Shown here piece after piece: positions 6,547 through 63,570 of a DNA stretch of 64,000 nt. The translations under genes and the position numbers were made by a program. This DNA comes from Amoebidium appalachense (taxonomy: Eukaryota; Protista; Ichthyosporea): the NCBI GenBank assembly GCA_963693365.1, contig CAVNZM010000012.1, positions 682,001 to 746,000 on the forward strand, read 5' to 3'. Under the pieces are notes generated by a model. It did not search any database, was not told the origin of the DNA, and saw only the letters and a program-made list of their open reading frames with translations. Position 1 is the first letter of the stretch. Each line of letters begins with the position of its first letter.

Positions 6547-9458
6547 ATGGCAGTTAAGTCTAAGGAGCCCAAGGGCAAGAAGGAGGCCGAGAAGGCTAAG
6601 AAGGCCCCTCCCCCCAAGAAGGTCGAGAGCGAGAGCGAGGAGGAGAGCGAAGAAGAAGAGTCCGAGGCCTCCGAGGAGGAGAAGCCCAAGGCCAAGGTGT
6701 GTGTTGGGGGGGATGGATGTGGTGGGGGTGGTGGGGGTCGGGTGGGAGAGTGGGATAAGGTTTAGAGGAAGGGAGGCCTTAGGAGACGTGATGGGGGAAG
6801 GGGTGGGGTTGAGGGGCAGAAGCTGGTGATGGGTCAGTCCGGTTTGCTTTCTTTTCTTTCGGGATCTGGTATGACCGGAGATGTTAGACACTTTGGCCTG
6901 GTCTTTCAACCCTCTAAGATTCACGCACAAGTGCACATGCACATGCAGGCACAGCGCCTACTTTTCCATTATGCTCTTCTCGCCACTTTGTTTGCTTAGT
7001 CCCGTGCTTTCCAGGAGCTGCTTCTTGTCGACTTCCCCCCAATCCCCCCTCCCCCCCCCCCCCCCTCCTCCTCCCCTTTCCCCCCTCCTCCGCCCATCTC
7101 TTTTTACCTTTTTCTCGATGTCATCGTGTCGGCTGTTCAAGGCAGGGCACACTTATAAACGCTTTTAGAGAAAGGGGTTCCTTTTGCATAACTTGACCTA
7201 CGGTGTGGGCCGAGTAATATAAGCCTTTTATGATTTTGCAGCTTCCAACTTTTGTTTTCTCCCCCCCCCCCTTTCTCCCGTCCAGCTTGTTACTTGGATG
7301 CCTTTGTCGTTTAGTGTCTCATAGTCGTGACCCCCTTCCCTCCCCGCCTTTCCCCCGTCTGGGCCTTCCCCCCCCCCCCCCCCCCCCCCGGCAAACCCAT
7401 AAACACAAACTTGTTCACACTTGCGAACACTGAACCACCTCTGTGCACCGTTGCTCCTCCGTTGTCGTTTCCCAAACCTTTTAGTATATCATTTTTCTTC
7501 CCTGCTTGAGCTGCAGAGAGCATGCTATCTCTGTCTTGTAGTTCTCGTGTGCCAGCTACCCTTCGGTTACTTATAGTAGTGTGCTTTACAGGCCGGCACG
7601 TCTGCCAAGAAGGAGGAGTCCTCTGAGGAGGAGGAAAGCGAGGAGGAAGAGAGCGAGGAGGAGGAAAGTGAGGAGGAGGAGAAGCCCAAGAAGGCTGCCC
7701 CCGCTAAGAAGGCACCCGCCAAGAAGGAGAGTGAGAGCGAGGAGGAGGAAGAAGAGAGTGAGGAGGAGAGCGAGGAGGAGGAGAAACCAAAGAAGGGGGC
7801 TGCCAAGAAGGAAGAGAGCGAGGAGGAGAGTGAAGAGGAGGAGAGCGAGGAGGAGGAGAACGGTGACAAGATGGAGGACGAAGAGGAGGAGGAGGAGGAG
7901 CCGATCAAGAAGAAGGGTGCTGATAAGGGCGCACAGAAGCGCAAGGCAGAGACGCAGATCGAGACCCCCGCCAAGAAGCAGGCTGCTGAGGGTGGTGAGG
8001 GCACCACCCTCTTCGTGGGTGGCCTCGACTTCAAGCTGGACAACGATGGTCTGCGCGAGGCATTCAGCGAGAATGGCTTCGAGGTGACTGACGTGCGCGT
8101 CCAGATGGACCGCGAATCGGGCCGCTCAAGAGGGTGTGTATCTCCCCCCCCCCCCCCCCCCCCCTCTCCCTCCGTGTGTGTGTGCTTGTATGGCTTCCCC
8201 TTGATTATGCCTGTGTGTGGCGTCTCTACGGCTATTCCCCTTGTGGTTGCTTTCAGGTTGAAGCATTATGGATGACCAGGACTGATCTTTCGGGAAACTT
8301 GGAGATACAAGAAGGGAAAGAGAAGGAGAATGGGTTTCAGCAAAACAGGTGTATGTAGAACACCCACCCATGGGGTAGTATATATGATACTCACTCGGTC
8401 ACTGCAGGTTTGCCTATGTCGAGTTTGCCGACGCAGCCACGGCCAAGAAGGCCCACAGCCAGATGGCCGGTGTCGAGGTGATGGGCCGTGCCCTCCGCCT
8501 GGACTGGGCCAACTCCAAGCCCGCAGCACGCACCCCGGGTGGTGGCAAGAGCGAGCCATCCACATCTCTGTTTGTGAAGGGCCTGCCCTACAGCGCCAGC
8601 CAGGAGACCGTGCAGGAGTTCTTCTCCGAGCACAACCCCACCAGTGTTCGCCTGCCATGGGACAACGACAACGACCGGCCCAAGGGCTTTGCCTACATCG
8701 ACTTCGAGGATGCCGACAGCGCCAAGGCTGCCATTGAGGCTCTCAACGGTGCCGACATGGAGGGTCGCAGCATCTTCATCGACTTTGCCACCCCACGCTC
8801 AAACGATGGCGGTAGCAGGGGTGGCCGTGGTGGCCGCGGCGGCGGATTCGGCGGACGTGGCGGCCGCGGCGGCCGTGGTGGTGGATTCGGCGGCGGACGT
8901 GGCGGCCGTGGTGGTTCGTTCGGCGGCCGTGGTGGCGGACGCGGTGGCGCACGTGGTGGTAAGTGTCCCTTTCGTTGATGTTTGTGCATTTGCTTGTGCT
9001 TGCCCCTGCACCCTGACCCCCCCCCCTGCCCCCCGCTCATAAACCCTCTCTCCCGCCGTTAAAACTACCGCCACCATACATGCACACATGACACCACCAG
9101 ACATGGACATATAACAGACCACCACACATCATCTTCACACTCGCAAACCGTTGTACTCCCCCTTCCTCCCCCCCCCCCCCCCCGCCCCCCCCCCCCATTT
9201 CAACCCTAGGCCTATTCCCTCGTATGTCCTCTTCTTTCCCCACTGTACAAATGAAGATACAACCCAATGCTGAGCACCTCACTCCTTCTCAACCCTCTTC
9301 AAGGGGAATGTACATACTAAGTCGTTTTGATGGCCAGAACGATTCCTATTTTGTGCCCTACATGTATAAAGTTCTTACAGTCCTATGTTCCAGGTTTCCG
9401 CGGCGGCCGTGGTGGCGGAAGCGAGTTCAAGGGCAAGAAGATGAGCTTCGATGATTAA
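6547..9458 (+). CDS. NCL: Nucleolin/Nsr1/Gar2-like protein; exons 6547-6696, 7592-8133, 8408-8958, 9394-9458
   Basis: Alternating acidic-Ser and Lys/Ala/Pro N-terminus, two RRMs (LFVGGL...RGFAYVEF; LFVKGL...KGFAYIDF), RGG/GAR domain, C-terminal FKGKKMSFDD*. All GT-AG introns are phase-compatible. Confidence 0.96.
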
Positions 9459-9890
9459 GCGGCGAAAGGGCGGGTGGGTGGGGTTGGGTTTGAAGGTCGG
9501 AGCCTGATGTTTGCTGTTGCTACGCTCACGTTGAAAAATTAAGTGACCCAATGTAGTGAATTCGTGATTTTCAATTATGATTTTATGGTTTTAGGACTTA
9601 CTGATTGCACGGGTGGTTGTACCACTTAACGACTGTACGTAATCAGGTTTTGAAGATCACAGCAACACAACACTGATTTTTACGATTATGTCACCTCTTG
9701 TTTTCTTTGCATAGGCGACATTTATTCCATGCGCTAAGGCATGGTTAGTATCGTGTGTACATTGGTTGCGGATAATAGTGGCTGTGCTCGAACAGGCAGT
9801 CAAGTCAATAAACTCCGAAGGAGTTATTCCCAGTCAGACAACACCATATGTGCACCGTCTATCCTCCCCCCCCCCCCCCCCCCCCCCCCC

Positions 9891-10568
9891 CGCGCACGCA
9901 TGCACACACCGCTCTGTTGGCGACAGCTCCCTTGGAACCCATGCGGCATGTTACCCGCCGGCGTAACATAACTCGGACTATCGGTTTGGCTTTTTTCAAG
10001 CCCAAAGCAATGGGTGATACCATATTTCCGGCTGACATCCGGGGGCATAGCTTTCCGTTCGAAGACGATAAAGTTCCGCCCTAGTAAGCGTGTTACTACC
10101 CTGCGGCGTGGGTCAAATCTCATATTTTCCCCTCTGATTACGAATTCTGTGGCCTTCGGGACTTAATTCTTTTCAGCTGGTGTAGTATGTTAGCCAGGGA
10201 AGTATCGACTTAGGTATCGACGGGGGAGCTTCCTAGAAGCCCCGTCTCCTGAGTTCCTATCTATATTTTTCTTGCTTCTGCTTACTGCTGCAACTTTAAC
10301 CCCCGGCCTTTCCCACTGCCCTTGCCTGCATAAGCAACCCTGCTCGTCTCTGATCAAGACGGGTGACCTACTCATGTTCAAGTGAAACAGTATCTGAGTT
10401 GGGTTTCGTTAACGAGGGGAATAGGTCGAAACTCGGGTACTGTGGATGACGTGGGCCCCCCCTGAGGATGGGCTCTGCTTATTATGCATACTCTTTATGT
10501 ATGGCTTGCATTCTGCATCGTGTTATCCGTTTGTTCTTGTGTACTTCGTACTTTTTGACGCATTCAAA
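9891..10568 (+). mobile_element. 678-bp interspersed element, copy 1 (putative non-autonomous/3' unit of a poly(C)-associated Penelope-like retroelement)
   Basis: Reverse complement of 47840-48517 with no differences seen by eye. Flanked by poly(C) on both sides, carries several hairpins, and ends ...gacgcattcaaa + (C)n. The repeat itself is certain; the class is inferred. Confidence 0.8.
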
Positions 10569-10570
10569 CC

Positions 10571-10601
<31 letters not shown>

Positions 10602-10666: not shown

Positions 10667-10740
10667 GCAAAATCTGCCTTGTGGTGTCCGTCGTGAATGT
10701 GCACTTTTTTTACTCGGTAACACATTCTTATCCTCTCAAC
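10667..10740 (+). repeat. Short dispersed repeat (tail family B) ending before a C-rich run
   Basis: Ungapped, roughly 80% match by eye to 63306-63370 (caaaatctgc..tgtggtgtcc.tc.tgaat.tgca...ctc.gtaaca.attct). Weaker relative at 59636-59700. Confidence 0.7.
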
Positions 10741-11893: not shown

Positions 11894-12760
11894 TTGTTCA
11901 TCTCTCGGACCTCGCGTAGGCATCCTCTGATGGCTCCTTTGCTGTGTGTTTTTGGTCTCCCTCCGGCGAGTCAGCGTATGAATGAGTTAGGCCTTCGCTT
12001 TTGTTTTCATCTGGTTAGGCTTCCTTCTTATCATCCTTTGTTGCAATTCTTTCCTTCTTTAGCCCCTGTTCCCATTTCTGATGTTCGTGCGAAATGTCCT
12101 GTACCCAATCTATCTCCCATTCAGAGATATCCTTTTAAATATATCGTCTCCTTTATTTTTCTCTTCCCCTATTTATCAGCAGTATGTTACTTGGTTTCAT
12201 ACTCAATATCCTTTGCTTCATCGTTGTGATAAAGAGTATCATGGTAGGACTCTTGAGCCTGTGCTTCTTTTTATATTAGAGATTCGTATATTTTCTCTAC
12301 AATCGACGTTATGTCAATGAGCTACTTATATTCATCCTTCCTCTCGTAAACCTACAACACTTGCCGATTTTGCCATTCTAACCTCTCCTTGTGATAGTGC
12401 TTGGAAATATGTTTATTTTGGCATTGTAACCTTAGTTTCCATAAATGTTTGTGTCACTTTTGTGCAGAACCTTTTTCTCGCAAACATCTAGATAGATGTA
12501 TTTATTTATCTCAGATTCTTCCGTTAGAAATTCGAAGACTCGCTTATTTAGATAATCCTGATATTACTTCTATTGACTATCTGTTAAACCACCGTATGTT
12601 TAACGAGTTTTCTAGGGTGTATGATTATTTGAGTCGTTCTCTCCTCCGTATCCGTGAGTAGGGGTTTTCGTATTTTCTTCTCTGAGATAGTATCTGTGAT
12701 ATCTCTGGCTTGCTTCTCTTTCATGAGCATATCAATAAAGTCATTATAACAAAAAACAAA
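11894..12760 (+). mobile_element. Degenerate 5'-truncated non-LTR retrotransposon (LINE) 3' end
   Basis: Frameshifted ORF with CCHC-type knuckle CHFCAEPFSRKHLDRC ending ...LLRIRE* at 12661, short 3' UTR, AATAAA at 12734 and an A-rich tail. Homologous copies at 13053-13150 and 32871-33107. Confidence 0.8.
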
Positions 12761-13052: not shown

Positions 13053-13150
13053 TTTTATAATGACTTTATTGATGTGCTCATGCAGAAAAGGAGATGTCGC
13101 AGATATCTCAAAGAGACGACTGGTATCGAGTCGCTCAAATAATGTACATG
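13053..13150 (-). mobile_element. Short inverted fragment of the same LINE 3' UTR
   Basis: Reverse complement reads ...catgagcacatcaataaagtcattataaaa, matching catgagcatatcaataaagtcattataac at 12722-12750. Confidence 0.75.
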
Positions 13151-15764: not shown

Positions 15765-15824
<60 letters not shown>

Positions 15825-16116
15825 GACCTTGTTGTGCGGCTGCAACAGGCAGGCAAGCAGGTGCATCTTGTGTCTGGGGGGTTCAGGCAAATGATCTACC
15901 CCGTGGCAGACACCCTGCACATCCCTCACACGGACGTCTATGCCAACAACCTGCTCTTTGATGACGTCACTGGCGCATTTGCTGGGTTTGACCCCAACGA
16001 GCCTACGTCACGGTCTGGGGGGAAGAAGAACGTTGTGGAGATGCTGATGGTGCGTGGGTGGGGGGGGTGGGGGGTGCGGGAAGGGGGAAGGGGGGGAGGG
16101 GATGTGTGGTATTGGT

Positions 16117-16183
<67 letters not shown>

Positions 16184-17356
16184 GGGAGGTAGGGAGATAT
16201 GGGGTGTGTGGGTTGTGGGTTGGAGGTGTTTTTTTTATCTGTGTGTGTGTGTGTGTATTTGTGGATGGGAGGGAGAGGGGGGGGGGGGGCGGGTATGAAG
16301 GAGGAAAGAAAATTTGTCGGCGAATGCCTGTGAATGTTATGGATGGAGGTTGGAAGTCTTTGGTTGGTTGGTTGGGGGGGGGGGGGGGGAGGGGGGAGGA
16401 CAAAGGGGGAGGGTGTGTGAATCTGGAGTCTGATCAATTGAGAGGAGATGAGTAGGAAAAGGGTGTTAGAGGAAGGGGGGAGGGGAGGGACGGGGGGAAG
16501 GATTAGGAGGTGGGGGGGGGGGGGGGGGAGAAAGTGAAAAAAGAAGGCTGCAAATTGGAGGCATGGGTCGAAAGGCTGTCGAAGGTAGGTTGTGTGTTGG
16601 TAGGTTTAAAGTTTCTGTACGGTGTGTGTGTGAGCATGTGTGTTATGTTCATGGTGATGGTGGTGGTGGTGGGGTGCTGGAGAGAGGCCCCCGAATAGGG
16701 CTTTTCACTTCTCTCTGTTTTTCTTTTCTTCTTTCCCCCGTCACTCCCTTTACCTCTGCCCTTTTATTCTGTTCTCTTGCCCTAAGCAGACCTCTCTCGC
16801 CTCAACTTTATACCCGCTCGTGCATGCTCGTAGCGTTCATTTTACTAATCAGTATACTTGGGTCCCCCCCTTTGCCCCCTCCCCCTCCTCCCCCGCTCCC
16901 TTCCCCGGCGCCCTTCTTACCACAACACGTACATCCATACACGCAAGCGCCGAAGTATTAACACACACGCACACACACCCACATACACACCCTTCCCCTC
17001 TCCCCAACTCCCCCCCCCCCACCCACGTCCACGTACACGTACCCCCCCCCCCCCCCCCCCCCCCCCCACCCCCCCCCACACACACACATACCCACACACA
17101 CGCACACACACACACACAGACACAGCGTGGCTATCAGACGGTAGTGATGGTTGGTGACGGTGTGACAGATATGGAGGCCAAGCCCCCTGCAGCCCTGTTC
17201 ATTGGGTTTGGAGGCAATGTGGTCAGAGAGTCGGTCAGGTCTAAGGCTGACTTCTTTGCCATGTCGATGCAGGATATCATCGGTGTGAACCCCCCCCCCC
17301 CCCCCCCCTCCCCCCAATTTTTTTTGTTTGCTCCATTGTTTCTCTCGTACTCTTGT

Positions 17357-22922: not shown

Positions 22923-24088
22923 TCTGATGTTTGGACAAACGACGAAGGGCGAATCCCTTTTTGCGCAGTCTATCCGGACCTCACTAGATTATAACGCAGA
23001 GCAGGGCTAATGTCTCAGTAGTAGAGAATTAAAAAGCGGAGAAGTAAGTGTGCAATTTTTACTCACTAAATAGCTTATTATATATGCCTCCCTGCTATAC
23101 TCTCTCTTCGTTCATCTCCAACTAACTACACGGTGTGTTGCTGTTTGTGCTTTTTTCTCTATATATATAAAAGAGTTGGCGACTTCGATCGGGAAAATGT
23201 AGGATAGTTTACGTGATAGTCCAAAACGCGTAGACTCTTAGAGCTCAGTGCTCAACGCATAAAAGACTATTTATGTCACTCAGACAAACAAATAGCACGT
23301 GCGATTTTGCAGCCAAATAAAGATAAAAACACCTATTGTTGATTGGTTGATTTCACTCGTGCGTTAAATCTTGCGGGTGATTGGCAGCTTCAGAATACAT
23401 ATTTGTGATCATTACAGCATACAGCTACAGTAGCATATCGCTGAAAATCAATAATGAGCATTTATTACAGAAAGCAATTATGTTCTAATCTTAGCAGTTA
23501 TAAGTCAAAAAGAACGATGAGTGCATAATCTGCAAGTTGACTAAAAGAAACCAATATCTGAATGAACACATGTGCGATTGGGTCAAATAACTAACCAAAT
23601 ATAGCTATTCAGAAGGATCGCTAATTGGTGCATGCATACGCATGTACCCCGACCGTGCCAATCAGATGAGAAAAGCAGGCTGTGTGCCTTGATGCTTGCG
23701 CGTGATTGGCAGCTTCAGATTTATTTTCAATAAAACCGATGAAGCTCAAATTTAATACTGTAAACTGTTCAAACCCCATTTATAATTGAAAAATAAGTGA
23801 TACGCCCCACAAAATTCTAAAGTTCAAATTCATATCTTCTAATATACGGGTGAATCATTTCCCGGAAAACCCGATGATTCACTTTTCTCCAACTTGGAAG
23901 GTACACAAACACAACTTGGAGTAAAGGGGCCAAGAAAGATTAGATGTTTTTTCTGTAAGATTCGTTCAGTGTCTCCAAGATTCGTTCAGTGTCTCCATTC
24001 GCCTTTGTTTCACCCACTGGTTGGCGTAAGGGGAGGGGATTCAAAACAACACAGAGAAACACGCCGTTTTGGCGCTCCACAAACGAAA
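22923..24088. promoter_or_regulatory. Putative bidirectional promoter between divergent genes, CCAAT-box rich
   Basis: AT-rich, microsatellite-free 1.17 kb between two divergent ATGs. Several ATTGG/CCAAT, including a 25-bp direct repeat cttgcgSgtgattggcagcttcaga at 23370 and 23695. Confidence 0.55.
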
Positions 24089-24633
24089 ATGAAGTTCGGC
24101 AAGCACTTGCTGGCTAATATGCCCCCAGAATGGAGGTTTAACTTCATAGATTACAGCGGGCTCAAGCGGTTTTTGAAGAGCAATGTGACGGCCACGGCGT
24201 GGGATGACAACCTCGAAGCCAAGTTTATTACTATGCTCGAGGAGGAGCTCAAGAAGGTGCGCGTGTGCGTGCGTGCGTGTGCGTGTGAATGGATGTGTGT
24301 GTGTGTGTGTGTGTGCGTGTTGTGCATGTGTGCGCACGTCTTCTTGGTGTTTGGGTGCCTACGGGCGTGCGTGCTTGTCACGTGATGTGTACTTCCCGGC
24401 GTATTATCACACGAAATTGTGCTGCATAGTGTCTTGACAGATGTTTACTTGTATACTTGTGAATACATGAGGGAAGGAGGTGGGGGCAGGGGGAGGGGGA
24501 GAGGACTGATGCAACTCGAAACCGAGGTGTAAGAAAGGGCCGGCTAAGGCTGACACCTGAAGGAACTTGAATGTTGTTGCCTGCTCGTGTATACTCTGCT
24601 TAGTTGGCTAATGTGTGCTGCTTTCTTTCCTGC

Positions 24634-24678
<45 letters not shown>

Positions 24679-25469
24679 CGCTCATTGGCTACTGCGAGTT
24701 GCTCGCTTTCCTTCCCCCACCCTCGCTTAGTTGGCTAACATGTGTTGCTTCTTTCCTGCCCCGCCCCCCTCCAAACCCCCCCCCCCCCCCCCCCCCTCCC
24801 CCGACTTTTTTTTTGTTGCAGCAATGTAGCCTCCAATTCCCTTCTCTTCCCTTTTGCATCTCTTTTCTTGCTGTAGCAACGCGCTTTAGAATGTGTATAG
24901 ACGTCAAACCTTTTTTTTACATGGGCAATGCCTACCCTCCCCCCCCCACCCCCCCCCCACCCCTTTTCGCTTCCCTGGAAGGTGTTAGACTTGTACCATC
25001 TCTCGTTCTTCGTGTGGGCTAGATTGGTTGTCTGTTACACATCGTGAAACGTGTGTGTTGAATGGCTGACAGAGCATGCGAGTGAATCTGATCGCAAACA
25101 AGGCTCTTGGGAGGCTCTTGGGCGGCAGTGTTTTGTGTTTTCACTTACGCGTGTATATTTGGTGTCTGTATCGTGTGTTGTATGTGTGTGGGTGTGGGTG
25201 GGTGTGTTTGTGTGTGTGCGCATACACTGTGTGCTCGTGCATTCGTGCGTGTGCTTGTGCGTTTGTGTACCTGTGCAGTTAAGCATGTGAGAGATTATCG
25301 AGTTGTTGTTGCACCGGTTTTGTATGGTTTTTTCTTTACTCATGTTGTCACGTGGCCTCCCCACCGGGCTTTGGTTCGCTTATATTGCATACACGTTGGT
25401 TGCTCGTGCTCGTGGTTCTCTGGTGTACCGCACGTTATTGTTTTGTATTTTTCACCGTGCTCTACTTCT

Positions 25470-25501
<32 letters not shown>

Positions 25502-26205
25502 TTTTTTCCCCATCTGGTCCACCCCTCCCCCCTTGTTTTCTCCCGCGGTTTCTCCTCAGCACATGCACCGTTTAAGCTCCCTTCCCTCGCCTTACCCTCC
25601 GTCTCTCTCCACTTCATCTGTCAACGGGTTGTGCCTGCATGTGTCTTTCGTATCTCTTTTCTGAAACTTATATATCCCTTCCCACCCCCCCCTACCTTCC
25701 CTTACTGATGCACCCTCCCTTTCCAACAATCATGTTTCCCCTTGGCGAAGTTATAGTCACTGTTCTGTTGTCGTTGAAACAAAGAATGGGTTAGGAACCA
25801 CCTTGCCAGAGACAAAGGATGCTTTGGGAACCACACGCTTGAGGTTGAAGAATCAAGACTCATTGATGTGGATTAATTACTACCCCCCCCCCCCCCCCCT
25901 CCCTTCGTGATGGGCTCAGTCAAACGTTAAACATTGGATGCAAATGTGTTTTCCGTGTTTGTTACTTGTGTCTTCCCCCCCCCCCCCCCCCCCCCCTCCC
26001 CCTAATTTCTCTTCTCCTCTGTAATACGTTCTGACCCCCCTTCCCCCCCTCCCTTCCTCTTCCTGCAGGTGTCCGATTTTGGGTTTGTCAAGTACAACGA
26101 GCTAGCGCGGCACGTGCAGTTTATCGAAAACGAAATCAACAAACTGCAGGATGCTTCGGCAAGCCCAAAGCTGGCCCAGCTCAAACAGGAGCTGGACGAC
26201 ATCAC

Positions 26206-26245
<40 letters not shown>

Positions 26246-26459
26246 GGGGGGAGGAGGGGGATGTGTAGGTGTGGTTTGGGGAAGGGGGGGGGGCGGAGAC
26301 GTGTAGGTGTGGGTTGGGGGGGGAAGGGGGGAGGGGGGTGCGGACGGAGGTGTGTGTGAGATGGGGGGGGGGGGAGGGGGGTTGATCGTTGTTTTTGTTG
26401 GGGGGGGGGGGGGGGGGTGACGGAGGGTTATGGGTGTTTTTTTCTTCGGGGGGGGACGG

Positions 26460-26502
<43 letters not shown>

Positions 26503-26695
26503 GGGGGAGGGGGGGGGAGGGGGGGAGGGGGGAGATGTCGGGGGATGGGTGTGTGTGAGGGAGGGCAGGTGGGGTGGGAAAGGGATTGGTGTGTGTGTGT
26601 GTGGTGGGATTGGTGTGTGTGTGTGGTGGGGTGGGGAAATGGTTGGGATGAGGAATCAATGGGAGGTTCGTGTTTGTGTGTGCATAGGAAGAGGG

Positions 26696-26740
<45 letters not shown>

Positions 26741-27714
26741 TTTGATAAGGTTGTGTGTGTGTGGGGAGGGGAGGGGGATGTGAGGTGGGTCGGTGAGTGA
26801 GTAACACTTTTTTTACTGGGGCGGGGAGAGGAAGAAGGGGGGGGGGGGGGGGGGGGGGATGGCAGTCTGTGCAGTTTGGCATGTAGGTTTGGGTGTGTAT
26901 GCATGGAGGGGGGGGGGGGGGGGGGGGGGGAGGGTGCCTTTGTGTGTGTGTGTGCGTGCGTGAGTCATGGATAATGTCCGGTGGACCTCTCTGCCGACCT
27001 GACCATTTTCTCCCTGCAGGGGACATTACCAAACTTGCCAAGTTCAACAGCCTCAACTACACGGCCTTCGTCAAGATCTTAAAGAAGCACGACAAGGTCA
27101 CAGACTACCGCTTAAAGCACACCTTCCTTGCGCGCCTGACCACCCAGCCCTTCTACAAGGAGACATTCGATGGCATGATTGTTACCCTATCAGCACTCTA
27201 CGAAAAGCTCAAGCCAGCCGACCGTGCAGACAAGAAGGGCACGGTGAACCTGCAGAGTTTTGTGCGTAAGACCACGAAGTACTGGGTGCATGCTGATAAC
27301 ATCACTGCTGTCAAGTGCAGTATGTGTACCCTTCTCCCCCCCGCCCCCCCTCTTGTTCAGGTGTGTTTTGCCTGCCTTTGCACCGCCCGTGATGACGGGT
27401 TTGCCGTGTTCGTTGTCTGATTTCACTGTCGGTTTCTTCACTTTGAACCTCCCACCCCAATTTCCGGATTTGGGGATTTGGGATCTCTATAAGGGTTGGG
27501 TTCGCCCTGAGGTTGGCCGTCTTTTGGGGAGGGGGAGGGGGGGGGGGGGGGAAGGGGGCGGGGGGGGGGGTAGGATTACATCCGGAGTAAGTTACCCGTT
27601 GTGAACCCCACCCATCCAAATACCCATTATTGGCATTGTGTTGTCCATCTTGCATGTGTACCTCATGCTCTTGTGACCCTTTCTAACCACCCCCCCTCCC
27701 CCCCCCCCCCCCCC

Positions 27715-27796
<82 letters not shown>

Positions 27797-28546
27797 CATC
27801 ATGCAGAACCTACCCGTGCTGCTGTTCAAGCGGGACCCCAACTTCTCCCGAGGCTACGATGCCGCCATCTCCTCCATCTACTACGACAACCCCCAGCTGG
27901 ACGTAGGTGCCCACACACACCATGCACACGGGCATACGTGCACACTAATGTATATGCATGCACAGACGTGCACATGTATGTGCATACACATATGTGCAAA
28001 TGTATATGCATACACAGACGTGCAAATGTATATGCATACACAGACGTGCACATGTATGTGCATACACAGATGTGCAAATGTATGTGCATACACATACGAA
28101 ATGTATATGCATACACATATGTGCAAATGTATATGTACACATACGTGCAAATGTATATGCATTCACAGACGTGCAAATGTATATGCATACACAGACGTGC
28201 AAATGTATATGCATACACAGACGTGCAAATGTATATGCATTCACAGACGTGCAAATGTATATGCATACACAGACGTGCAAATGTATATGCATACACAGAC
28301 GTGCAAATGTATATGCATGCACAGACGTGCAAATGTATATGCATACACATACGTGCAAATGTATATGCATACACAGACGTGCACATGTATATGCATACAC
28401 AGACGTGCAAATGTATATGGATACACAGACGTGCACATGTATATGCATACACACACACACACACACACAAATTATTGTTGACCCAAGCAAGTCCAATGGC
28501 ATTATCTCGCCTTTCCTCTGCTTTCTCTCATGACTCGTTGCATTCT

Positions 28547-28594
<48 letters not shown>

Positions 28595-28887
28595 ACACCT
28601 CCTCTCCCCCTCCCCATCTCGTCGCTTCTTTCCCCCTCTTCCCCTCCACCCTCCACCCTCCACCCTGCCTTCCGGATCCGCCTCTCCCCTTCCCCACCTA
28701 TCCCAATTAGCCCCAACCCCCCTCCCCCAGGCGCCCACCTTCCCCCTCACGCTCCCTCCCTCCCAGTATTCTTGTGACTTGTCTAAATTGGCACACCATT
28801 GCCTCTGCTTATGCCGAAAAAGTTTTTTGTACCATGAAGCTTTTGTACATACTGAAACCGTTCCCGCCCCCCCCCCCCCCCCCCATC

Positions 28888-28970
<83 letters not shown>

Positions 28971-29997
28971 CTCTACCACGAGCGTATCGAGAAGGTTGAA
29001 CGTGCGCTTGCACTTCGTCTGCGTTGGTACGGCACACGGCCCAAGGAGGTGTTCGTGGAGAGGAAAACACACCACGAAGACTGGACGGGAGACAAGAGTG
29101 TGAAGGAGCGGTTTAGTCTCAAGGAGAAACACGTCAACTCGTATCTTGCTGGGGAGTTTACGTTGGATCAGAAGGCGGATAAACTGAGAGCACGGGGGAA
29201 GAAGGAGAGCGATATTCAGTACCAGGTGGGTTTGTGGGTGGGTGGGTGTGTGGGTGGGTGTGGTCTCTCTCTCGCTCTCTGTCTGTGTGTGTGTGCCTGT
29301 TCTTTTTGTGTTATGGTTGCAACGTGTGTAATGGACATTTTTTACCCTTCTCTCCTCCCCCCCCCCCCCCCCCTCCTCCCCCTCCGCTATCAAAGGTGCT
29401 TTGCAAGTTGTGTATGCCTGTGCACGCTCTTCACCGGTGGTTGTATGGGGGTAGCAAATTAGAACGTGCTGGGGTGTGCACGTGCAAATGGGCCCCAAGC
29501 TTATTCCGTTGTATGTCTGGAAGCAAATAGTTCGTCTCTTCTCCTCTCTCACCGTCCTGTCCCCTTTTGTCGATTCCAAGTCAAGACCCTTTCCTTTTTT
29601 CCCGGTTTGATGAGCCAAAAAAACATTGTTTACGAGATTTAGTTTGATTGGTCCATTAAACCCCTCACTCTTTAACTTTAAATGCTGACCAATGGTCCTG
29701 CAGCTCAACCTAGCCAGTGAGATCCAGGGGCAGATCAAGAAGTACGGCCTGCAGCCCTGTGTGCGCACATTCTACAACCGCACAGCCTTCCAGCACCCCA
29801 CATCTCAGGCCGTGCGTATCCCCCCCCCCCCCCCACCTCCCTCCCCCCTCTTTTCCCCTTTGGAATTCCACACTAGACTCACAAAAACAAGAAATAACTC
29901 GCTGACACTGCACGTCCGAACTCTCTTGGAACACGTTTTCGACTCGACTTCATATGTTCGTGTCGGCCAACCCCCCCCCCCCCCCCCCCCCCCCCCC

Positions 29998-30084
<87 letters not shown>

Positions 30085-30249
30085 ACACAATCCTTCTGAT
30101 CGGATGTCATGTGCCTTTGTGTTAGAGGCTTTTAAGCACAGTAGGTCCAGGAGCCGGCTGGCCACTACATGGGTTTCTAATCTAGGTTGCTCTCACTCAT
30201 CCACGTGCACACACACATGGGATACGCACATGTACACACTCCGAGGCAT

Positions 30250-30283
<34 letters not shown>

Positions 30284-30860
30284 ACGTATCTCGCTGGACA
30301 CTGAGCTTACGATGATCCGAGAGATGGAGCGATGCAACGGCAATTGGTTCCGCTCCGAGGTCGGTGTTGATTGGCCATTCGACTACCTCCCAGCCAATGA
30401 AATCACCCGCTTCCCATATGCAATTCTCGAGGTGAAACTTTCAACGGCCGCGGGTGAAAAACCCCCCCAGTGGATCATGGATCTTATTGACAGCCACCTG
30501 GTGGAGGTGGTGCCCAAATTTAGCAAGTTCATCCACGGCTGTGCCACGCTGCTGGAAGAGAGGGTGCGCCTGCTGCCCTTCTGGCTGCCCCAAATGGAAA
30601 AGGTGTGTGTGTATGTGTTGGACCCCCCCCCCCCCCCCCTCCCCCCTCCCTCCCCTCCCCCCCCCCTTCCGGGTGGCACCTGTCCTTTTCCGGATCCCCA
30701 AACGTGCTTTCTTAGACTGCTGGCTTGCTGAACTTTAAACCGAATGCACACATAAGAAATTCGGTTTTGTGTTATTTAGTCGGCATCCGGTTTGTGGGAG
30801 CTGTTGTCTTACCGCGACTGTTTGTGGTGCCGGTGTTTTTACACAACTTCACACTTCTCC

Positions 30861-30895
<35 letters not shown>

Positions 30896-30928
30896 ACCCA
30901 CCCACCCCCCACCACCCACCCACCCACC

Positions 30929-30978
<50 letters not shown>

Positions 30979-31277
30979 ACATCCGCAAGCCGGCCAAGCC
31001 CGGGTTCCCGCTAGCGGACATTGTTCCCACAACCGTGCCGGCCATCACCCAGGGGCAGGGCTACAGCGCCATCCACATGAACGGCATAGAACTTGAAGAT
31101 GATAATGAGCCAATGGAACACGAGGAGGCCACGGAGAGCACGTCACTGCTGGGCAAGAAGCCACGGAGGGATGGACGGTCGAATGCATCATCACCTACAT
31201 CGTTCAGATCCAGAGGGGTACGTGTTTTTTGTGTGTTTGAGTAGGGGAGTGATGGTCAATTTTGGGGAGGAGGGGAT

Positions 31278-31311
<34 letters not shown>

Positions 31312-31372
31312 ATTTGGGGGAGGAGGGGATGAGGGGGAAGAGGATTTCTGGTGTGGATGTATCTGTGTGAGC

Positions 31373-31410
<38 letters not shown>

Positions 31411-32158
31411 ATGTTCATAGCCCCCCCCTCACTCACCGCGCTTCCGCCCACTATCCTTCTGAGGTTGGTTCGATCATTCTGGTCAATTTTCAACTATTTT
31501 TCTCGATGACCCTCTCACCGTCATAACATTCCATTTTGTTTTCCCTCGTTTTACAACATCAATGCAACTTCTTCTGTCTACCCCGAACTCTGAAGATGCA
31601 TGTCGTGATCGAAGGACTGATCCCCCCCTCCCCCCTCCCTCCCCCTCCTCTCTCTCTCTCTCTCCCCCTTACCCCTCCCCCCCCCCCCCCTCCCCTTCTA
31701 TCCCCTTCCCAACAAAAAAACATGCACACACACACACACACACACAGTCACACGCAAGGCCGCAACCACCCTCGCGTCAAACGAAACCCATTGCGCTCCC
31801 CGTGCGTGTGGAGCCCAAGGTGTTCTTTGCAAACGAGCGCACGTTCCTCAACTGGCTACACACTGCCGTCCTTATCTCCACCATCGGTCTCGCGCTTCTT
31901 AACCTCGCACCGGAATCGAAGGGTGCAAAGGCGTCGCGCATCGCCGGACTTACTCTGATTCCCGTAGCAATCATGTTTCTGGTTTACGCCCTCTACACTT
32001 ACTTCTGGCGTGATCGTAAGATCAAGACGCGCGATCCGGAGCCGTACAACACGATTGTCGGGCCGATTGCAATCACGTGTGTGTTTTTGGGCGCAATGGT
32101 AATCAACTACATTGCGTGGTTCTTGGAGAACGGCGCAGATGTGTCAAAGTGGGATTAA
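24089..32158 (+). CDS. VTC4: Vacuolar transporter chaperone 4 (polyphosphate polymerase; SPX-VTC-DUF202); exons 24089-24256, 26069-~26208, ~27020-27319, 27796-27902, 28971-29225, 29704-29811, 30282-30602, 30978-31217, 31748-32158
   Basis: SPX (MKFGK...FIDYSGLK; [15 protein letters not shown]), VTC catalytic motifs ([78 protein letters not shown]) and TM domain ([17 protein letters not shown]). One junction has a 1-nt phase ambiguity. Confidence 0.96.
27948..28452 (+). repeat. 26-bp minisatellite, about 19 copies, in VTC4 intron 4
   Basis: Unit acgtgcaaatgtatatgcatacacag repeated head-to-tail with point variants and no spacers. Confidence 0.93.
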
Positions 32159-32870: not shown

Positions 32871-33107
32871 TTTTTTTTTTTAATAATGACTTCATTGATA
32901 TGCTCAGCAAAATAGAAGCCATCGAGATATCACCGATATCTCGGAGAAGAAAATACAAAAGCCCTCATTCTCGGATACGGAGGAGATAACGACTTAAATA
33001 ATCATACACCCTAGAAAACTCACTAAACATACCGTGGTTCAACAGATAGTCAATAGACGTAATAGCAGGATTATCTAAATAAGCCAGTCTTCTAATTTCT
33101 AAAGGAA
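32871..33107 (-). mobile_element. 5'-truncated LINE 3' fragment with poly(A) tail
   Basis: Encodes PLEIRRLAYLDNPAITSIDYLLNHGMFSEFSRVYDYLSRYLLRIRE*, nearly the same as 12521-12661. A T-run at 32871-32881 is the tail. Confidence 0.85.
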
Positions 33108-34631: not shown

Positions 34632-35392
34632 ATATAATACGTTGTAAAACAAATGTCGCCGAATTTCTCTAAAAAAAGTGCGTTCCATTCTTGGTTAGAA
34701 ACCCAAACCGTTTTGATACGGGAATCACCTGATCTCTGCCGTCATTCAGCCCAGCGCGTTCACAGTGAATCCGAAACCGCTGGTTTTTTTCTTTTTATTT
34801 CAAAGCCCCGAGTACGTACATCCTCTCGGGCCCAACTTTACGGCACTATATTTCAATTTTCTCATTATCAAATATATAGTTATTTTAGGCTTTTTAATTA
34901 GTATCGCAAGAATATTTAGCGATTTTGATGTCATAAAAACAACTAAGCAACGTTTCGATGGTTTTTGATGCCTCACAAAATGGCCTTAGGTCCCCTCCAA
35001 ATTCCGGATTTGAGGTCCGGCAGTAAAAAAGGTGCGTTCCATTCTGGGTTAGAAACGAAAACCGTTTTGATACGGGAATCACCTGATCTCTGCCGTCATT
35101 CAGCCCAGCGCGTTCACAGTAGACTCCGAAACCGCTGGTTTTTTTCTTTTTATTTCAAAGCCCCGAGTACGTACATCCTCTCGGGCCCAACTTTACGGCA
35201 CTATATTTCAATTTTCTCATTATCAAATATATAGTTATTTTAGGCTTTTTCATTAGTATCGCAAGAATATTTAGCGATTTTGATGTCATAAAAACAACTA
35301 AGCAACGTTTCGATGGTTTTTGATGCCTCACAAAATGGCCTTAGGTCCCCTCCAAATTCCGGATTTGAGGTCCGGCAAACAACGCATTATAT
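34632..35392. repeat. ~355-bp near-perfect tandem duplication (34672-35022 / 35025-35377) bounded by 14-bp inverted repeats; possible non-autonomous DNA element
   Basis: The two units differ by a few substitutions and one indel. atataatacgttgt (34632) and acaacgcattatat (35379) are 13/14 complementary. Confidence 0.8.
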
Positions 35393-40254: not shown

Positions 40255-41147
40255 CCCGTTTGGTTGGTGGGGTTACACGTGCAAGTGAAATGTTCGAAAC
40301 TCGGGTTAATGTGTGGATGGCTTGGGCCCCCATGAGAATGGGCCCTTCATCTGATGCATGCTCCCTGTTTGTATACCTTCTTTTGGTAATAACTGTGGTT
40401 GTTTTTCGATCGTGAATGTTAGCTTCATATCCGTAACACATTCATAACCCCCCCCCCCCCCCCCCCTCTTCCCTTTTCGGTGTGTGTGTGTGTGTGTGCG
40501 TGTGGTGTTTCTTTGTTTTGTTTTTTGTTGGTTGGTTGGTTGGTTTTTTGCTTTTGCTTTTGCTTTTTGTTTTTTAATGGGTGTTCATGCACTGACTATT
40601 ATTTTTGTGGGTGTTCATGCACTGACTCTCCCTCCTTTGCAGTGACATGGATGCAGCGCAGCAGGCCCGGCTGCAACTTCTATCAGGTGGAGACAAGAGC
40701 AAGAAGGTGGCCATGATGAATGCATCGGCAGTGGCCGCAGCCCAGAGACCTAAGAAGGGCCCTGAGGGCATGATGGGGGCTATGGGTTATGCTAACCCCA
40801 ACTCGCTTTTGCTCACGTACGACCAGAGGGCTAGGCAGGCCGCCGCACAGCAACCCCAACAGATGCAAGCAGCCGCCGCACAGCAGAGGCTTGCAGGGGC
40901 ATACGGGCAGATGGCTTATCCCCAGGCAATGCCTGCGCTGGGACAGTACCAACCCGGATACCCCGCACATGCACCCCAGGCATATGCACCACATATGCAG
41001 GCATACGGTCAGCCCACATACGATATTCTTCCCCCCCTGCCCATGGCTCAACCCCCACCTCAGGACGGGCAGCAGGCGGATGCGTTGCTGCGTCTGTCTA
41101 TGCAGCAGAGGGGATTGTGGCCGGGTCAGCAGCAGACGTATTCGTAG
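36818..41147 (+). CDS. Hypothetical nuclear protein (acidic N-terminus, CxxC + coiled coil, basic region, MBD-like segment, Gln/Ala/Pro-rich tail); exons 36818-37070, 38634-38839, 39495-39677, 40003-40136, 40643-41147
   Basis: Five exons join in frame at GT-AG sites with codon usage like the neighbouring genes. Function not recognised. Confidence 0.8.
39261..39444. mobile_element. 184-bp MITE, Tc1/mariner-type, intronic
   Basis: 33-bp terminal inverted repeats cagtgcttgcaccgtctttctgcaccaatc(a/g)ga with one mismatch, TA on both flanks, and an inner inverted pair tgattggctgg / ccagccaatca. Confidence 0.88.
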
Positions 41148-46866: not shown

Positions 46867-47133
46867 GGAAGGGCTGAACTTCAAGGAGGGAGGAGAGAGG
46901 ATACGGAGAGGGGTCAGAATGTACGACAGAATACTGTAGTTACAATGACAGACAGAATTTTGCAGATTCTGCACAGCACACACTACACACACAGGGTCTG
47001 CAACGCAAGCAGGGCCATTTATTCACCTCGTGCATGTAACCAACTCAGACACGGGTTCACTGTATGGGCCACCCGTCTTTATCAGAGACGAGCCAGGTTA
47101 GTAATGGGGGCCGGAGGAGTAGGAGGTGGTGGT

Positions 47134-47200
<67 letters not shown>

Positions 47201-47839
47201 CGGCTGCTTCCCTTACACCAGATTCAACTCGCATCTACTCTTTTACCAAACTTTAATGCCAATACTTCCCGTGCTTTGACAGGACATGGAGACTGACCGA
47301 ACAAACAGGAGGGAAGGGGAGTGTGTGTTTGTGCATGCGCGTGTGGGGTGGTAGTGGTGGTGTGGTGATGGAGGGTGTGTGTGTTTCGAGGGGGGAGCAT
47401 GGGTGTGTCTTATGATGGTCGTGGTTCTGGGTTTGAAATGCGTTACAGGAGTGCAAAATGCACGTTCATTCGGACAACACAATGCCGAATGAAAAACACG
47501 CAAAGAGTATGCATGGGGGGGGGGGGGGAGGGGGGAGGTGGGGTGATTCTTGTCTAAGTGTCGACATATTATGGGGCCTCAGTTCAAGTCGATGTGTCAA
47601 CTTTTATTCAGTTCGAACTGACATAATTTAGCTCATACGGGAGGATGAAAGCTTGCAACCACCATTTCTAACTGAAGTACCCGCACAAGTTATTTTTAGC
47701 TTCCCCCCCTTCCCCATACAACCTTCCGGAGGTTCCCTGCAGGGCTTACGTTTTAATGCCATGTTCAATACTCAAGCTACCTCCCCGTAGATGTTCACAA
47801 AGGGGCAGGAGAAGAGGGGGGGGGGGGGGGGGGGGGTGG

Positions 47840-48517
47840 TTTGAATGCGTCAAAAAGTACGAAGTACACAAGAACAAACGGATAACACGATGCAGAATGC
47901 AAGCCATACATAAAGAGTATGCATAATAAGCAGAGCCCATCCTCAGGGGGGGCCCACGTCATCCACAGTACCCGAGTTTCGACCTATTCCCCTCGTTAAC
48001 GAAACCCAACTCAGATACTGTTTCACTTGAACATGAGTAGGTCACCCGTCTTGATCAGAGACGAGCAGGGTTGCTTATGCAGGCAAGGGCAGTGGGAAAG
48101 GCCGGGGGTTAAAGTTGCAGCAGTAAGCAGAAGCAAGAAAAATATAGATAGGAACTCAGGAGACGGGGCTTCTAGGAAGCTCCCCCGTCGATACCTAAGT
48201 CGATACTTCCCTGGCTAACATACTACACCAGCTGAAAAGAATTAAGTCCCGAAGGCCACAGAATTCGTAATCAGAGGGGAAAATATGAGATTTGACCCAC
48301 GCCGCAGGGTAGTAACACGCTTACTAGGGCGGAACTTTATCGTCTTCGAACGGAAAGCTATGCCCCCGGATGTCAGCCGGAAATATGGTATCACCCATTG
48401 CTTTGGGCTTGAAAAAAGCCAAACCGATAGTCCGAGTTATGTTACGCCGGCGGGTAACATGCCGCATGGGTTCCAAGGGAGCTGTCGCCAACAGAGCGGT
48501 GTGTGCATGCGTGCGCG
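47840..48517 (-). mobile_element. 678-bp interspersed element, copy 2
   Basis: Reverse complement of 9891-10568 with the same two boundaries. The ORF track gives identical peptides. Its 3' end runs into a G-tract on the plus strand (poly(C) on the element strand). Confidence 0.8.
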
Positions 48518-48640
48518 TAACGCAATGTGTGAAGTGTGTCTATAGCTATGAAAGGGGGTATGCAGAAGTGGACAGATGAAGTGTGTGGAGAGAAAAACAG
48601 TAAGAAGAAAAGTAGACACCGGTATGTGCAACCCCGCACA

Positions 48641-48675
<35 letters not shown>

Positions 48676-48772
48676 AATAAGCGAAGATTACAGGTAATCA
48701 ACCAGAACAACAAATGACAAGCAAAACAACAGGCGCCAAAAAAAAAAAAAAAAAAAAAAAAAAAAGGAGGAA

Positions 48773-48778
<6 letters not shown>

Positions 48779-48866
<88 letters not shown>

Positions 48867-49206: not shown

Positions 49207-50291
49207 TCACTCATCGTCCTTGGTACCAGACTTCAGCACCTTGACAAACGTCATGTAGTTGAAGTCCTCGTTCTCAATATGGTTGCCGCGCATAATCTCT
49301 TCTATCTCTTCCTCGGTCATGCGGTCACCCATAGTGGTGAGGTACTCGCGTAGAACATCAATAGGCACTTTGCCCTTGCCACCCTCGTCGAAGCACTCGA
49401 ATGCTTGCCTGATGGTGCCTTCTGGATCCGAGCCTACAAGCTTTTCACCAAACAGCGTCAAGAACATAGTGAAGTTAAGCTGTGATGAGCCGGGAGCCTC
49501 GGCAAGCATCTCCTCGAGCTGAGCGTCCTTGACGTCTAGCATGCCTGGAGGGGAGACATGAAGGTTAGCGGATTTTATATTATTTCAAAGGAGCGCACAA
49601 GCCCTTCAAGGTTCTACAAAAGACACAGCAGATGCTAACAAACAGCCACAGGAACTGCAACCGACACGCTACAAGGAAAGCTTGGAAACGCTGGCAATAG
49701 TTATCCCGGCACACACTACTCACCGAGAGAGTTGTAGGTCTCCTCCAGATCTGCCTTGCTGATGAAGCCGTCGTGATCATAGTCGATCAGGTTGAAGGCT
49801 TCCTTGAACTCAGCAATTTGCTCCTGGTCGAACATCGCGAAGATGTTCGAGGAGGCGCGCTGGGCGCGCTTCTTCTTGGTCTTGCGGGAAGCCTGTGGAC
49901 ATTGACATATTAGCACAAAAGCAAAAGATCTTGTGCTACCCAAGCACAGAGACCGTTTCAATGCCCAGCAGAGAGGACGTGTGTCGTATTATAACTTGCG
50001 TTGTCGGCTAAATCTGGACGTTCTTTCTTTAAAGCCGTTGTGCTAACAAACAATGCTGCTCAGGGCACACCTTTACCATCCTGGCACTTATCGACTCAAA
50101 GGGACTGCTGCTCCCATTCTTCTAAAATCTTGGTGAAAGCATTCTATTGCATCACTGGGAACTCCACCCTTTCGAGTTTGTTGACCCATTTACATAAATG
50201 AAATGTTTCGCAGCAGAAGTTGAGAAGAAACAGGTGCATAAAAAGCGACATATCTCCGCACACCAGAGGGAGGGGTGGTGTTGCTCACCAT
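49207..50291 (-). CDS. MYL12: Myosin II regulatory light chain; exons 50291-50289 (ATG only), 49892-49724, 49544-49207
   Basis: [69 protein letters not shown]. The ATG-only first exon is inferred from aagATG|gtgag in phase 0. Confidence 0.93.

Positions 50292-54615: not shown

Positions 54616-63570
<8,955 letters not shown>

What the first reader, a model, noticed from the sequence alone, without database searches (positions are those of the whole stretch)
9891..10568. Recently active 678-bp element that ends in poly(C): candidate Penelope-like (Chlamys/Naiad-type) non-autonomous unit
Seen: two copies 38 kb apart (9891-10568 +, 47840-48517 -) with no visible differences and the same 5' and 3' limits, plus a third, 89-bp 3'-only copy (61816-61904). 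All three end cattcaaa followed by a C-run. There are no TIRs, no poly(A) and no TSD. The first ~190 nt encode ...RRRNITRTIGLAFFKPKAMGDTIFPADIRG...PP* (stop at 10084). Known: Penelope-like RTs end in a thumb motif of the type 'vAy.rp.nl.d.l', and Chlamys-clade elements (N-terminal GIY-YIG, ORF ending after RT) associate with (C)n/(CA)n. Inference: this is the ORF end plus 3' UTR/pseudo-LTR of such an element, mobilised as a fixed-length unit in a holozoan-like genome.
Basis: partly seen in the sequence, partly recalled or inferred. Interest (0 to 1): 0.82.

Follow-up and report, generated by a model that had tools for sequence, protein, structure and literature searches.

The report
High-copy C-run-targeting Penelope-like retroelement
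A young, very abundant repeat in a single-celled relative of animals has a fixed 3' end, variable 5' ends and sits in runs of C; it is likely a Penelope-type retroelement of the endonuclease-less kind, which would be unusual because that kind normally stays at chromosome ends.

Summary
The repeat is real. The 678-bp copies and the 89-bp copy are 100% identical. Public contigs show a very high-copy family, deepest at the 3' end.

The claim of a fixed-length unit is wrong. Depth and one intact contig run on past 48517, so 9891 is a 5' truncation point and copy 2 is at least 800 bp.

About nine older relatives in the window share the 3' terminus. Six of 12 3' ends abut C≥10 against a background near 1%, and most placeable 5' junctions are C-rich too, so C-runs are the likely target.

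No RT and no homolog of the peptide was found. The Penelope-like (PLE) call therefore rests on a post-thumb motif (about 5% by chance), a defective hammerhead-like fold with a long helix III, and some head-to-tail joints.

A motif followed soon by a stop fits endonuclease-less Coprina/Neptune-type PLEs better than Chlamys/Naiad, where a similar motif lies upstream of RT.

Verdict: likely a new PLE family, clade unproven.

The parts
9891..10568 (+). Young copy 1, 5'-truncated, flanked by C-runs on both sides
9866..9891 (+). C26 run at the 5' junction of copy 1 (likely target remnant)
10569..10587 (+). C19 run at the 3' junction of copy 1
47840..48640 (-). Young copy 2, at least 800 bp; the true 5' end is not defined (may run through the (GT)n at about 48645-48672 to about 48760; inferred)
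48518..48640 (-).
61816..61904 (+). Young 89-bp 3'-only copy; C5 at the 5' junction, C19 at the 3' junction
9893..10084 (+). ORF end (63 aa + stop); no database homolog
9980..10024 (+). PLE post-thumb-like motif IGLAFFKPKAMGDTI (loose class pattern found in 94 of 2000 shuffles)
10345..10451 (+). Defective type I hammerhead-like arrangement: CTGATCA at 10350, GAAA at 10384, 14-bp helix III closing at 10443, G at the cleavage position, bulged stem I
40268..40447 (+). Older relative with the family 3' terminus followed by C19
59438..59564 (+). Older relative; a second, weaker one follows in the same orientation at 59643-59694
46915..47110 (-). Older relative keeping the 5' half of the hammerhead-like region
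47432..47514 (-). Older relative with a C13 run at its 5' junction
10672..10730 (+). Older relative just downstream of copy 1 (round-2 E 0.0014; raised contig depth)
55773..55836 (+). Weak older relative between two C-runs (E 0.5-1); similar weak ones at 62139-62232 and 63261-63368

Best explanation
This is a young, high-copy repeat family with a fixed 3' end, variable 5' ends and C-runs at its junctions; it is likely a Penelope-like retroelement whose visible part would be the end of an endonuclease-less (Coprina/Neptune-type) RT ORF plus a structured 3' repeat, copied by reverse transcription primed at C/G tracts. Shown: identity, high copy load, 3'-weighted depth, C-run junctions, and an ORF end with no endonuclease after it. 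Inferred: an RNA ending ...cauucaaacc(c)n pairs with the G-rich strand of a genomic poly(C)/poly(G) tract. A PLE RT, supplied in trans or from a spliced full-length copy not seen here, extends that DNA 3' end and often stops early. The junction resolves in the same C-run, which hides any TSD. Whether the 3' OH comes from a partner GIY-YIG nick or from spontaneous breaks at G tracts is untested. The copies in the window cannot encode RT: there are in-frame stops just upstream of the peptide in copy 2.
For: Copy load: 10,794, 9,725 and 5,809 contigs laid in X1, X3 and X14. X1 summed depth is 5-7e5 over 9936-10271 and 1.2-1.7e6 over 10314-10523, against 43-49 on the flanks; X14 is not flagged as a possible source. 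20 of 24 listed runs, from 7 studies, hold at least half of the words. Truncation: plus shared 3' termini with different 5' ends. Target: 6 of 12 3' ends abut C>=10 within 4 nt; in the strict round-1 set it is 4 of 7; background is 0.9% and 0.4% by strand. 5 of 7 placed 5' junctions are C-runs of 4 or more, against 1-2% background. PLE traits: the motif has the same spacing as the post-thumb motif of Neptune, Penelope and Hydra in Fig. S7 of PMC8557442; a loose class pattern occurs in 94 of 2000 shuffles. A relaxed hammerhead descriptor hits once; 7 of 1000 shuffles give any hit and 0 of 1000 have helix III of 12 bp or more. Fungal and protist EN-less PLEs are described with long-helix-III hammerheads (PMC4209133). 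3 of the 12 joint sequences shown (of 41) are a family 3' end joined to an internal element position, i.e. head-to-tail (table 5c).
Against: No RT domain in the 76 non-repetitive window ORF stretches scanned (76 of 81). No homolog of the peptide; one search's 5 hits are short matches summed over 4-10 stretches, and the 4 read are unrelated repeat proteins. The motif is short, and the tight version (0 of 2000) was fitted after seeing the sequence. The hammerhead breaks the core (C at G8, G at the cleavage site, stem II not adjacent to GAAA); the strict descriptor finds nothing, the relaxed one was loosened post hoc and does not require stem II; the Rfam hit is 14.2 bits against a cut-off of 34; folding z is -0.2 to -0.4. 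EN-less PLEs are normally telomeric and low-copy (PMC13159263); here the copies lie between genes, with no TAACCC arrays in the window. Head-to-tail joints can also come from re-use of one target. The ends of the old copies were placed by hand with the flanks in view. That Coprina ORFs end just after this motif is recalled, not shown by any search.
Confidence: 0.5

Rival explanations
1. A non-autonomous unit mobilised by a Chlamys/Naiad-type (N-terminal GIY-YIG) PLE; the motif would then be coincidental or a remnant of the EN-RT linker.
For: (C)n is a common Chlamys target, copy numbers can be very high, non-autonomous Chlamys exist and canonical hammerheads are mostly absent (PMC8557442). All of this fits.
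Against: In Chlamys proteins the similar motif lies N-terminal to RT and is followed by the CxC region, not by a stop (by eye). Chlamys is reported from the green lineage and Physarum, and Naiads mostly prefer (TA)n.
Confidence: 0.17
2. The 3' end of a microsatellite-targeting non-LTR retrotransposon (LINE), or a LINE-mobilised SINE-like family, unrelated to PLEs.
For: 5' truncation, a fixed 3' end and repeat targeting are generic signs of target-primed reverse transcription. Microsatellite-specific LINEs exist (recalled). A shared upstream module with different middles (depth differs between modules in X9 and X20) is SINE-like. No PLE homolog was found.
Against: No poly(A) or short tandem tail at the ends. 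No tRNA and no Rfam Pol III head in 48300-48800. The motif and the hammerhead-like fold lie in the order and strand expected for a PLE.
Confidence: 0.25
3. A rolling-circle DNA element (Helitron- or Replitron-like) or another unknown copy-paste repeat.
For: No TIR, no visible TSD, and tandem joints.
Against: No CTRR-type end (recalled hallmark). The strong 3' gradient with many different 5' ends is more typical of reverse transcription.
Confidence: 0.07
4. Local duplication or misassembly.
For: Two copies are 100% identical.
Against: Thousands of variant contigs in runs from several studies, and diverged relatives in the window.
Confidence: 0.01

Closest known systems
Coprina (EN-less PLEs of fungi, diatoms, Selaginella) and EN-less offshoots of Neptune (MjPLE01)
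   Same: ORF end with no endonuclease after a post-thumb-like motif; a 3' region with a long-helix-III hammerhead-like fold; a 3' end that could pair with a G-rich strand (PMC4209133, PMC6431247, PMC13159263)
   Different: Dispersed between genes at very high copy, not telomeric; target is C-runs, not telomere repeats; hammerhead core broken; RT not found
Chlamys PLEs, including non-autonomous MRC1-like units and the EN-less genome-wide PLE-X1_cBra of Chara
   Same: (C)n or (CA)n targeting, 5' truncation, high copy, hidden TSD; PLE-X1_cBra is a precedent for an EN-less, dispersed, microsatellite-associated PLE with a hammerhead (PMC8557442)
   Different: Motif position (C-terminal here, N-terminal of RT in Chlamys); host lineage (holozoan); no EN, CxC or IFD seen
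Neptune / Penelope-Poseidon / Hydra (C-terminal EN+ PLEs)
   Same: Motif spacing is closest to the Neptune rows of Fig. S7
   Different: The ORF stops about 20 codons after the motif instead of continuing into GIY-YIG
Microsatellite-targeting non-LTR retrotransposons and their SINEs (recalled)
   Same: Fixed 3' end, 5' truncation, repeat target
   Different: No poly(A) or repeat tail of their own, no Pol III head found

Membership tests
Penelope-like elements (any clade) | PLE-clade RT | not testable with these tools
   No genome held; no RT in the window; no homolog found
Penelope-like elements (any clade) | Frequent 5' truncation with a fixed 3' end | tested here: met
Penelope-like elements (any clade) | Partial tandem / pLTR arrangement | tested here: inconclusive
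   3 of 12 shown joints are head-to-tail; same-orientation neighbours in the window; target re-use is not excluded
Penelope-like elements (any clade) | Post-thumb motif | tested here: inconclusive
   Present on the sense strand; loose pattern in 94 of 2000 shuffles
Penelope-like elements (any clade) | Retained intron | tested here: inconclusive
   Intron-like upstream module with 3 yAG sites, no donor placed; no splice joint (contigs only)
Coprina (EN-less PLE) | No GIY-YIG after the RT thumb | tested here: met
   Stop at 10082-10084; no GIY-YIG-like text in the downstream frames by eye; no Pfam hit for the peptide
Coprina (EN-less PLE) | Telomeric / subtelomeric location | tested here: not met
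   Copies lie among host genes; 0 TAACCC arrays in the window
Coprina (EN-less PLE) | Canonical type I hammerhead with long helix III | tested here: inconclusive
   Strict descriptor 0; relaxed 1 hit with two core defects; 7 of 1000 shuffles
Coprina (EN-less PLE) | Reverse-complement telomere repeats at the 3' end | tested here: inconclusive
   At most one TAACCC-like unit at some old ends; the host's telomere repeat is unknown
Chlamys/Naiad | N-terminal GIY-YIG, CxC motif, IFD | not testable with these tools
   No full-length copy reachable
Chlamys/Naiad | (C)n or (CA)n insertion preference | tested here: met
Chlamys/Naiad | Motif placed N-terminal to RT rather than at the ORF end | tested here: not met
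   (by eye; only one complete Chlamys C-terminus was visible because long rows were cut)
LINE / SINE | Poly(A) or tandem-repeat tail | tested here: not met
LINE / SINE | tRNA/5S/7SL-derived head | tested here: inconclusive
   None found, but the true 5' end is not defined

The most novel reading that the evidence does not exclude
An endonuclease-less, Coprina-type Penelope element has left the telomere. It primes reverse transcription on interstitial poly(G) tracts (quadruplex-prone break or stall sites) instead of telomeric overhangs, and so reached hundreds to thousands of copies in an ichthyosporean genome: telomerase-like priming used genome-wide without a nuclease.
Probability: 0.2. Interest if true: 0.75.

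Novelty: new member of a known kind. Interest (0 to 1): 0.45.

Why it matters
I found no PLE described from ichthyosporeans in the held library (searches; none of the 20 listed of 78 papers holds 'Penelope-like'). A young, very abundant family in a unicellular relative of animals would fill a gap in PLE distribution. If its RT partner truly lacks an endonuclease, the family would give thousands of natural insertion sites for asking how EN-less PLEs obtain a primer away from telomeres, a question PMC8557442 leaves open for the Chara PLE-X families. If it is a Chlamys-driven or LINE-driven unit, it is an ordinary new repeat family.

Tried and rejected
Genome-wide BLAST was impossible: no genome is held.

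Exact DNA patterns gave 0 hits: metagenome contigs, viral contigs (21, 50), genome contigs (49). Peptide locus searches gave 0 of 371 and 0 of 47 candidate stretches confirmed.

Protein searches: longer, 0 of 23 candidates; near, no candidates. HMMER over 1.84 billion proteins gave 5 hits that are summed short repeats; 4 were read and rejected, P0002 was not read. ESM Atlas gave no usable hit twice; Pfam gave none.

Expression: no RNA holder listed. X4 and X20 are RNA only by guess, so I draw nothing on expression.

Insertion polymorphism at copy 1 could not be judged, because the tool skips the C-runs. X9 shows the peptide-bearing part at depth 45-270 but the upstream module at 1e4-4.5e4; this hints at a strain-specific burst, but X9 has no single-copy reference.

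SECIS and K-turn readings of 10445-10490 were considered by eye and dropped: the stem is too short and Rfam gave no SECIS hit. Rfam miRNA and sisRNA hits are below cut-off.

The idea that the family generates the genome's C-runs was rejected for recognisable copies: only 6 of the 173 C/G runs of 10 or more abut a family 3' end.

Earlier findings: nothing in four look-ups. Papers not held: PMC1890498, PMC5850863, PMC5785218. Supplement file 2 of PMC13159263 was not searched, and PLE protein rows in PMC8557442 are cut at 400 letters; both could bear on the Coprina and Chlamys C-termini.

Full report
Observation. The two long copies are identical over 678 bases and the third over 89. All three end in ...gcattcaaa next to a C-run. 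The window is extremely rich in such runs: 118 C-runs and 55 G-runs of 10 or more, 3,643 of 64,000 bases. C adjacency therefore had to be tested against background.

Copy load. No genome is held, so I used public runs. 20 of 24 listed runs, from 7 studies, hold at least half of the unit's words; 3 are flagged as possible sources. Laying four runs gave 10,794 (X1), 9,725 (X3), 17 (X4) and 5,809 (X14) contigs. X1 summed depth is 5-7e5 in the 5' half and up to 1.7e6 in the 3' part, against 43-49 on the flanks. The tool warns that this is not a copy number. Allowing up to 31-fold overlap of short contigs still leaves hundreds to over a thousand copies (my inference). The rise toward the 3' end and the many loose ends show several subfamilies sharing the 3' part.

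The 5' end. On 48400-48640 the depth does not drop at 48517. One 552-nt X4 contig spans the whole stretch with 0 differences, and X9 and X20 are deeper upstream of 48517 than downstream. So 9891 is a truncation point and copy 2 is at least 800 bp. It may continue through a (GT)n tract to about 48760; this is inferred from loose ends that resemble the sequence on both sides of the tract. In copy 2 the peptide's frame has stops a few codons upstream, and the upstream module is intron-like with three yAG sites. The visible copies cannot make RT.

Relatives and target. With simple repeats masked, the last 240 nt find 7 copies at E<=0.0015 and nothing in the reversed window; a second round adds weaker ones. 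They align at a shared terminus. Of 12 3' ends, 6 abut C>=10 within 4 nt and 9 have C>=6 within 12 nt, against background rates of 0.4-0.9% and 2.5-5%. In the strict set of 7 it is 4 of 7. The old ends were placed by hand, and five of the 12 come from the weaker round. Of 7 placed 5' junctions, 5 are C-runs of 4 or more (background 1-2%). 2 of the 13 loose ends shown also begin with a C-run on the element strand. C on both sides points to insertion into existing C-runs, not a C tail; empty sites could not be seen.

The peptide. No database returned a true homolog. The window has no RT among 76 of 81 candidate stretches scanned; the five left out are tandem-repeat frames at 27987-28477. Fig. 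S7 of PMC8557442 shows a motif after the thumb in Neptune, Penelope/Poseidon and Hydra (for example PLVAYKRTRNIGDIL in Neptune1_Ac), and IGLAFFKPKAMGDTI has the same spacing. A loose class pattern occurs in 94 of 2000 shuffles and 6 times in the window, two of them these copies. A tighter, post hoc pattern occurs in 0 of 2000. In those clades GIY-YIG follows; here the frame stops about 20 codons later. In Chlamys proteins a similar motif lies upstream of RT, and the one complete C-terminus shown lacks it (by eye). That Coprina ORFs end this way is recalled, not shown.

The RNA. A type I hammerhead-like order is present at 10345-10451: CTGATCA, GAAA, a 14-bp helix III and a bulged stem I. It has C at G8, G at the cleavage site and no stem II next to GAAA. 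A strict descriptor finds nothing; the relaxed one hits 7 of 1000 shuffles, and none with so long a helix. Subfamily fragments keep GAAAC and one shows U at the cleavage position (loose ends; by eye). Rfam gives only a sub-threshold Hammerhead_1 hit in a different register, and folding is no better than shuffles. Long-helix-III hammerheads are described for fungal and protist EN-less PLEs (PMC4209133). I rate this a suggestive remnant, not a shown ribozyme. Three of 12 displayed joints are head-to-tail.

Host. The myosin light chain's only named hit of 3 is a Sphaeroforma arctica protein at 74%. The host is likely an ichthyosporean or a close holozoan.

Mechanism. The most likely reading is target-primed reverse transcription of a PLE-type RNA at C/G tracts, with frequent early termination (steps marked in Best explanation). 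The source of the primer is open. A partner GIY-YIG would make this Chlamys-like in function. Nuclease-free priming on G tracts would mirror telomere attachment by Terminons and Coprina (PMC6431247, PMC13159263). A dispersed EN-less precedent exists in Chara (PMC8557442).

What I read. PMC8557442: parts 1-6 of 10, passages, and supplement parts 1, 2, 6, 53, 55, 57, 58. PMC4209133: parts 1-2 of 4. bioRxiv 10.64898/2026.07.22.740005: part 1 of 5. PMC13159263, PMC6431247, PMC7761336, PMC11244446: passages. The last has 0 'Penelope' in its text and in two supplements.

Verdict. A real, young, abundant, C-run-targeted retroelement family. It is likely PLE-related (about 0.67 across clades), more likely EN-less-type than Chlamys/Naiad, with no RT in hand. 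Interest 0.45.

Noticed in passing
window 12519-12759 (+), 32871-33107 (-), 13055-13114 (-): A second repeat family (86% identical) that ends an ORF. The last 48 codons differ at 9 synonymous and 5 non-synonymous codons, and one copy ends in an A-run. Likely the 3' end of another retroelement; no Pfam hit.
   Followed up: partly
window 34678-35377: Tandem duplication of about 354 bp, 98% identical, in an AT-rich stretch.
   Followed up: no
window 27933-28456: Array of about 26-80 bp units inside an intron of the SPX-VTC (VTC4-like) gene.
   Followed up: no
whole window: C/G homopolymer runs of 10 or more cover 5.7% of bases (118 C, 55 G), together with many (CA)n tracts; an extreme low-complexity landscape.
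   Followed up: partly
window 48518-48620: In X9 and X20 this upstream module is much deeper than the peptide-coding part, so other subfamilies share it with different middles.
   Followed up: no
window 10429-10439: One X1 contig shows a local tandem expansion of a roughly 10-nt unit here that resembles TAGGGT repeats (table 5c).
   Followed up: no
window 49207-49988 (-), 8388-8978 (+), 23843-32158 (+), 15795-17305 (+): Host genes: myosin regulatory light chain, an RRM nucleolin-like protein, a VTC4-like SPX-VTC-DUF202 protein and a HAD (phosphoserine phosphatase-like) protein.
   Followed up: partly
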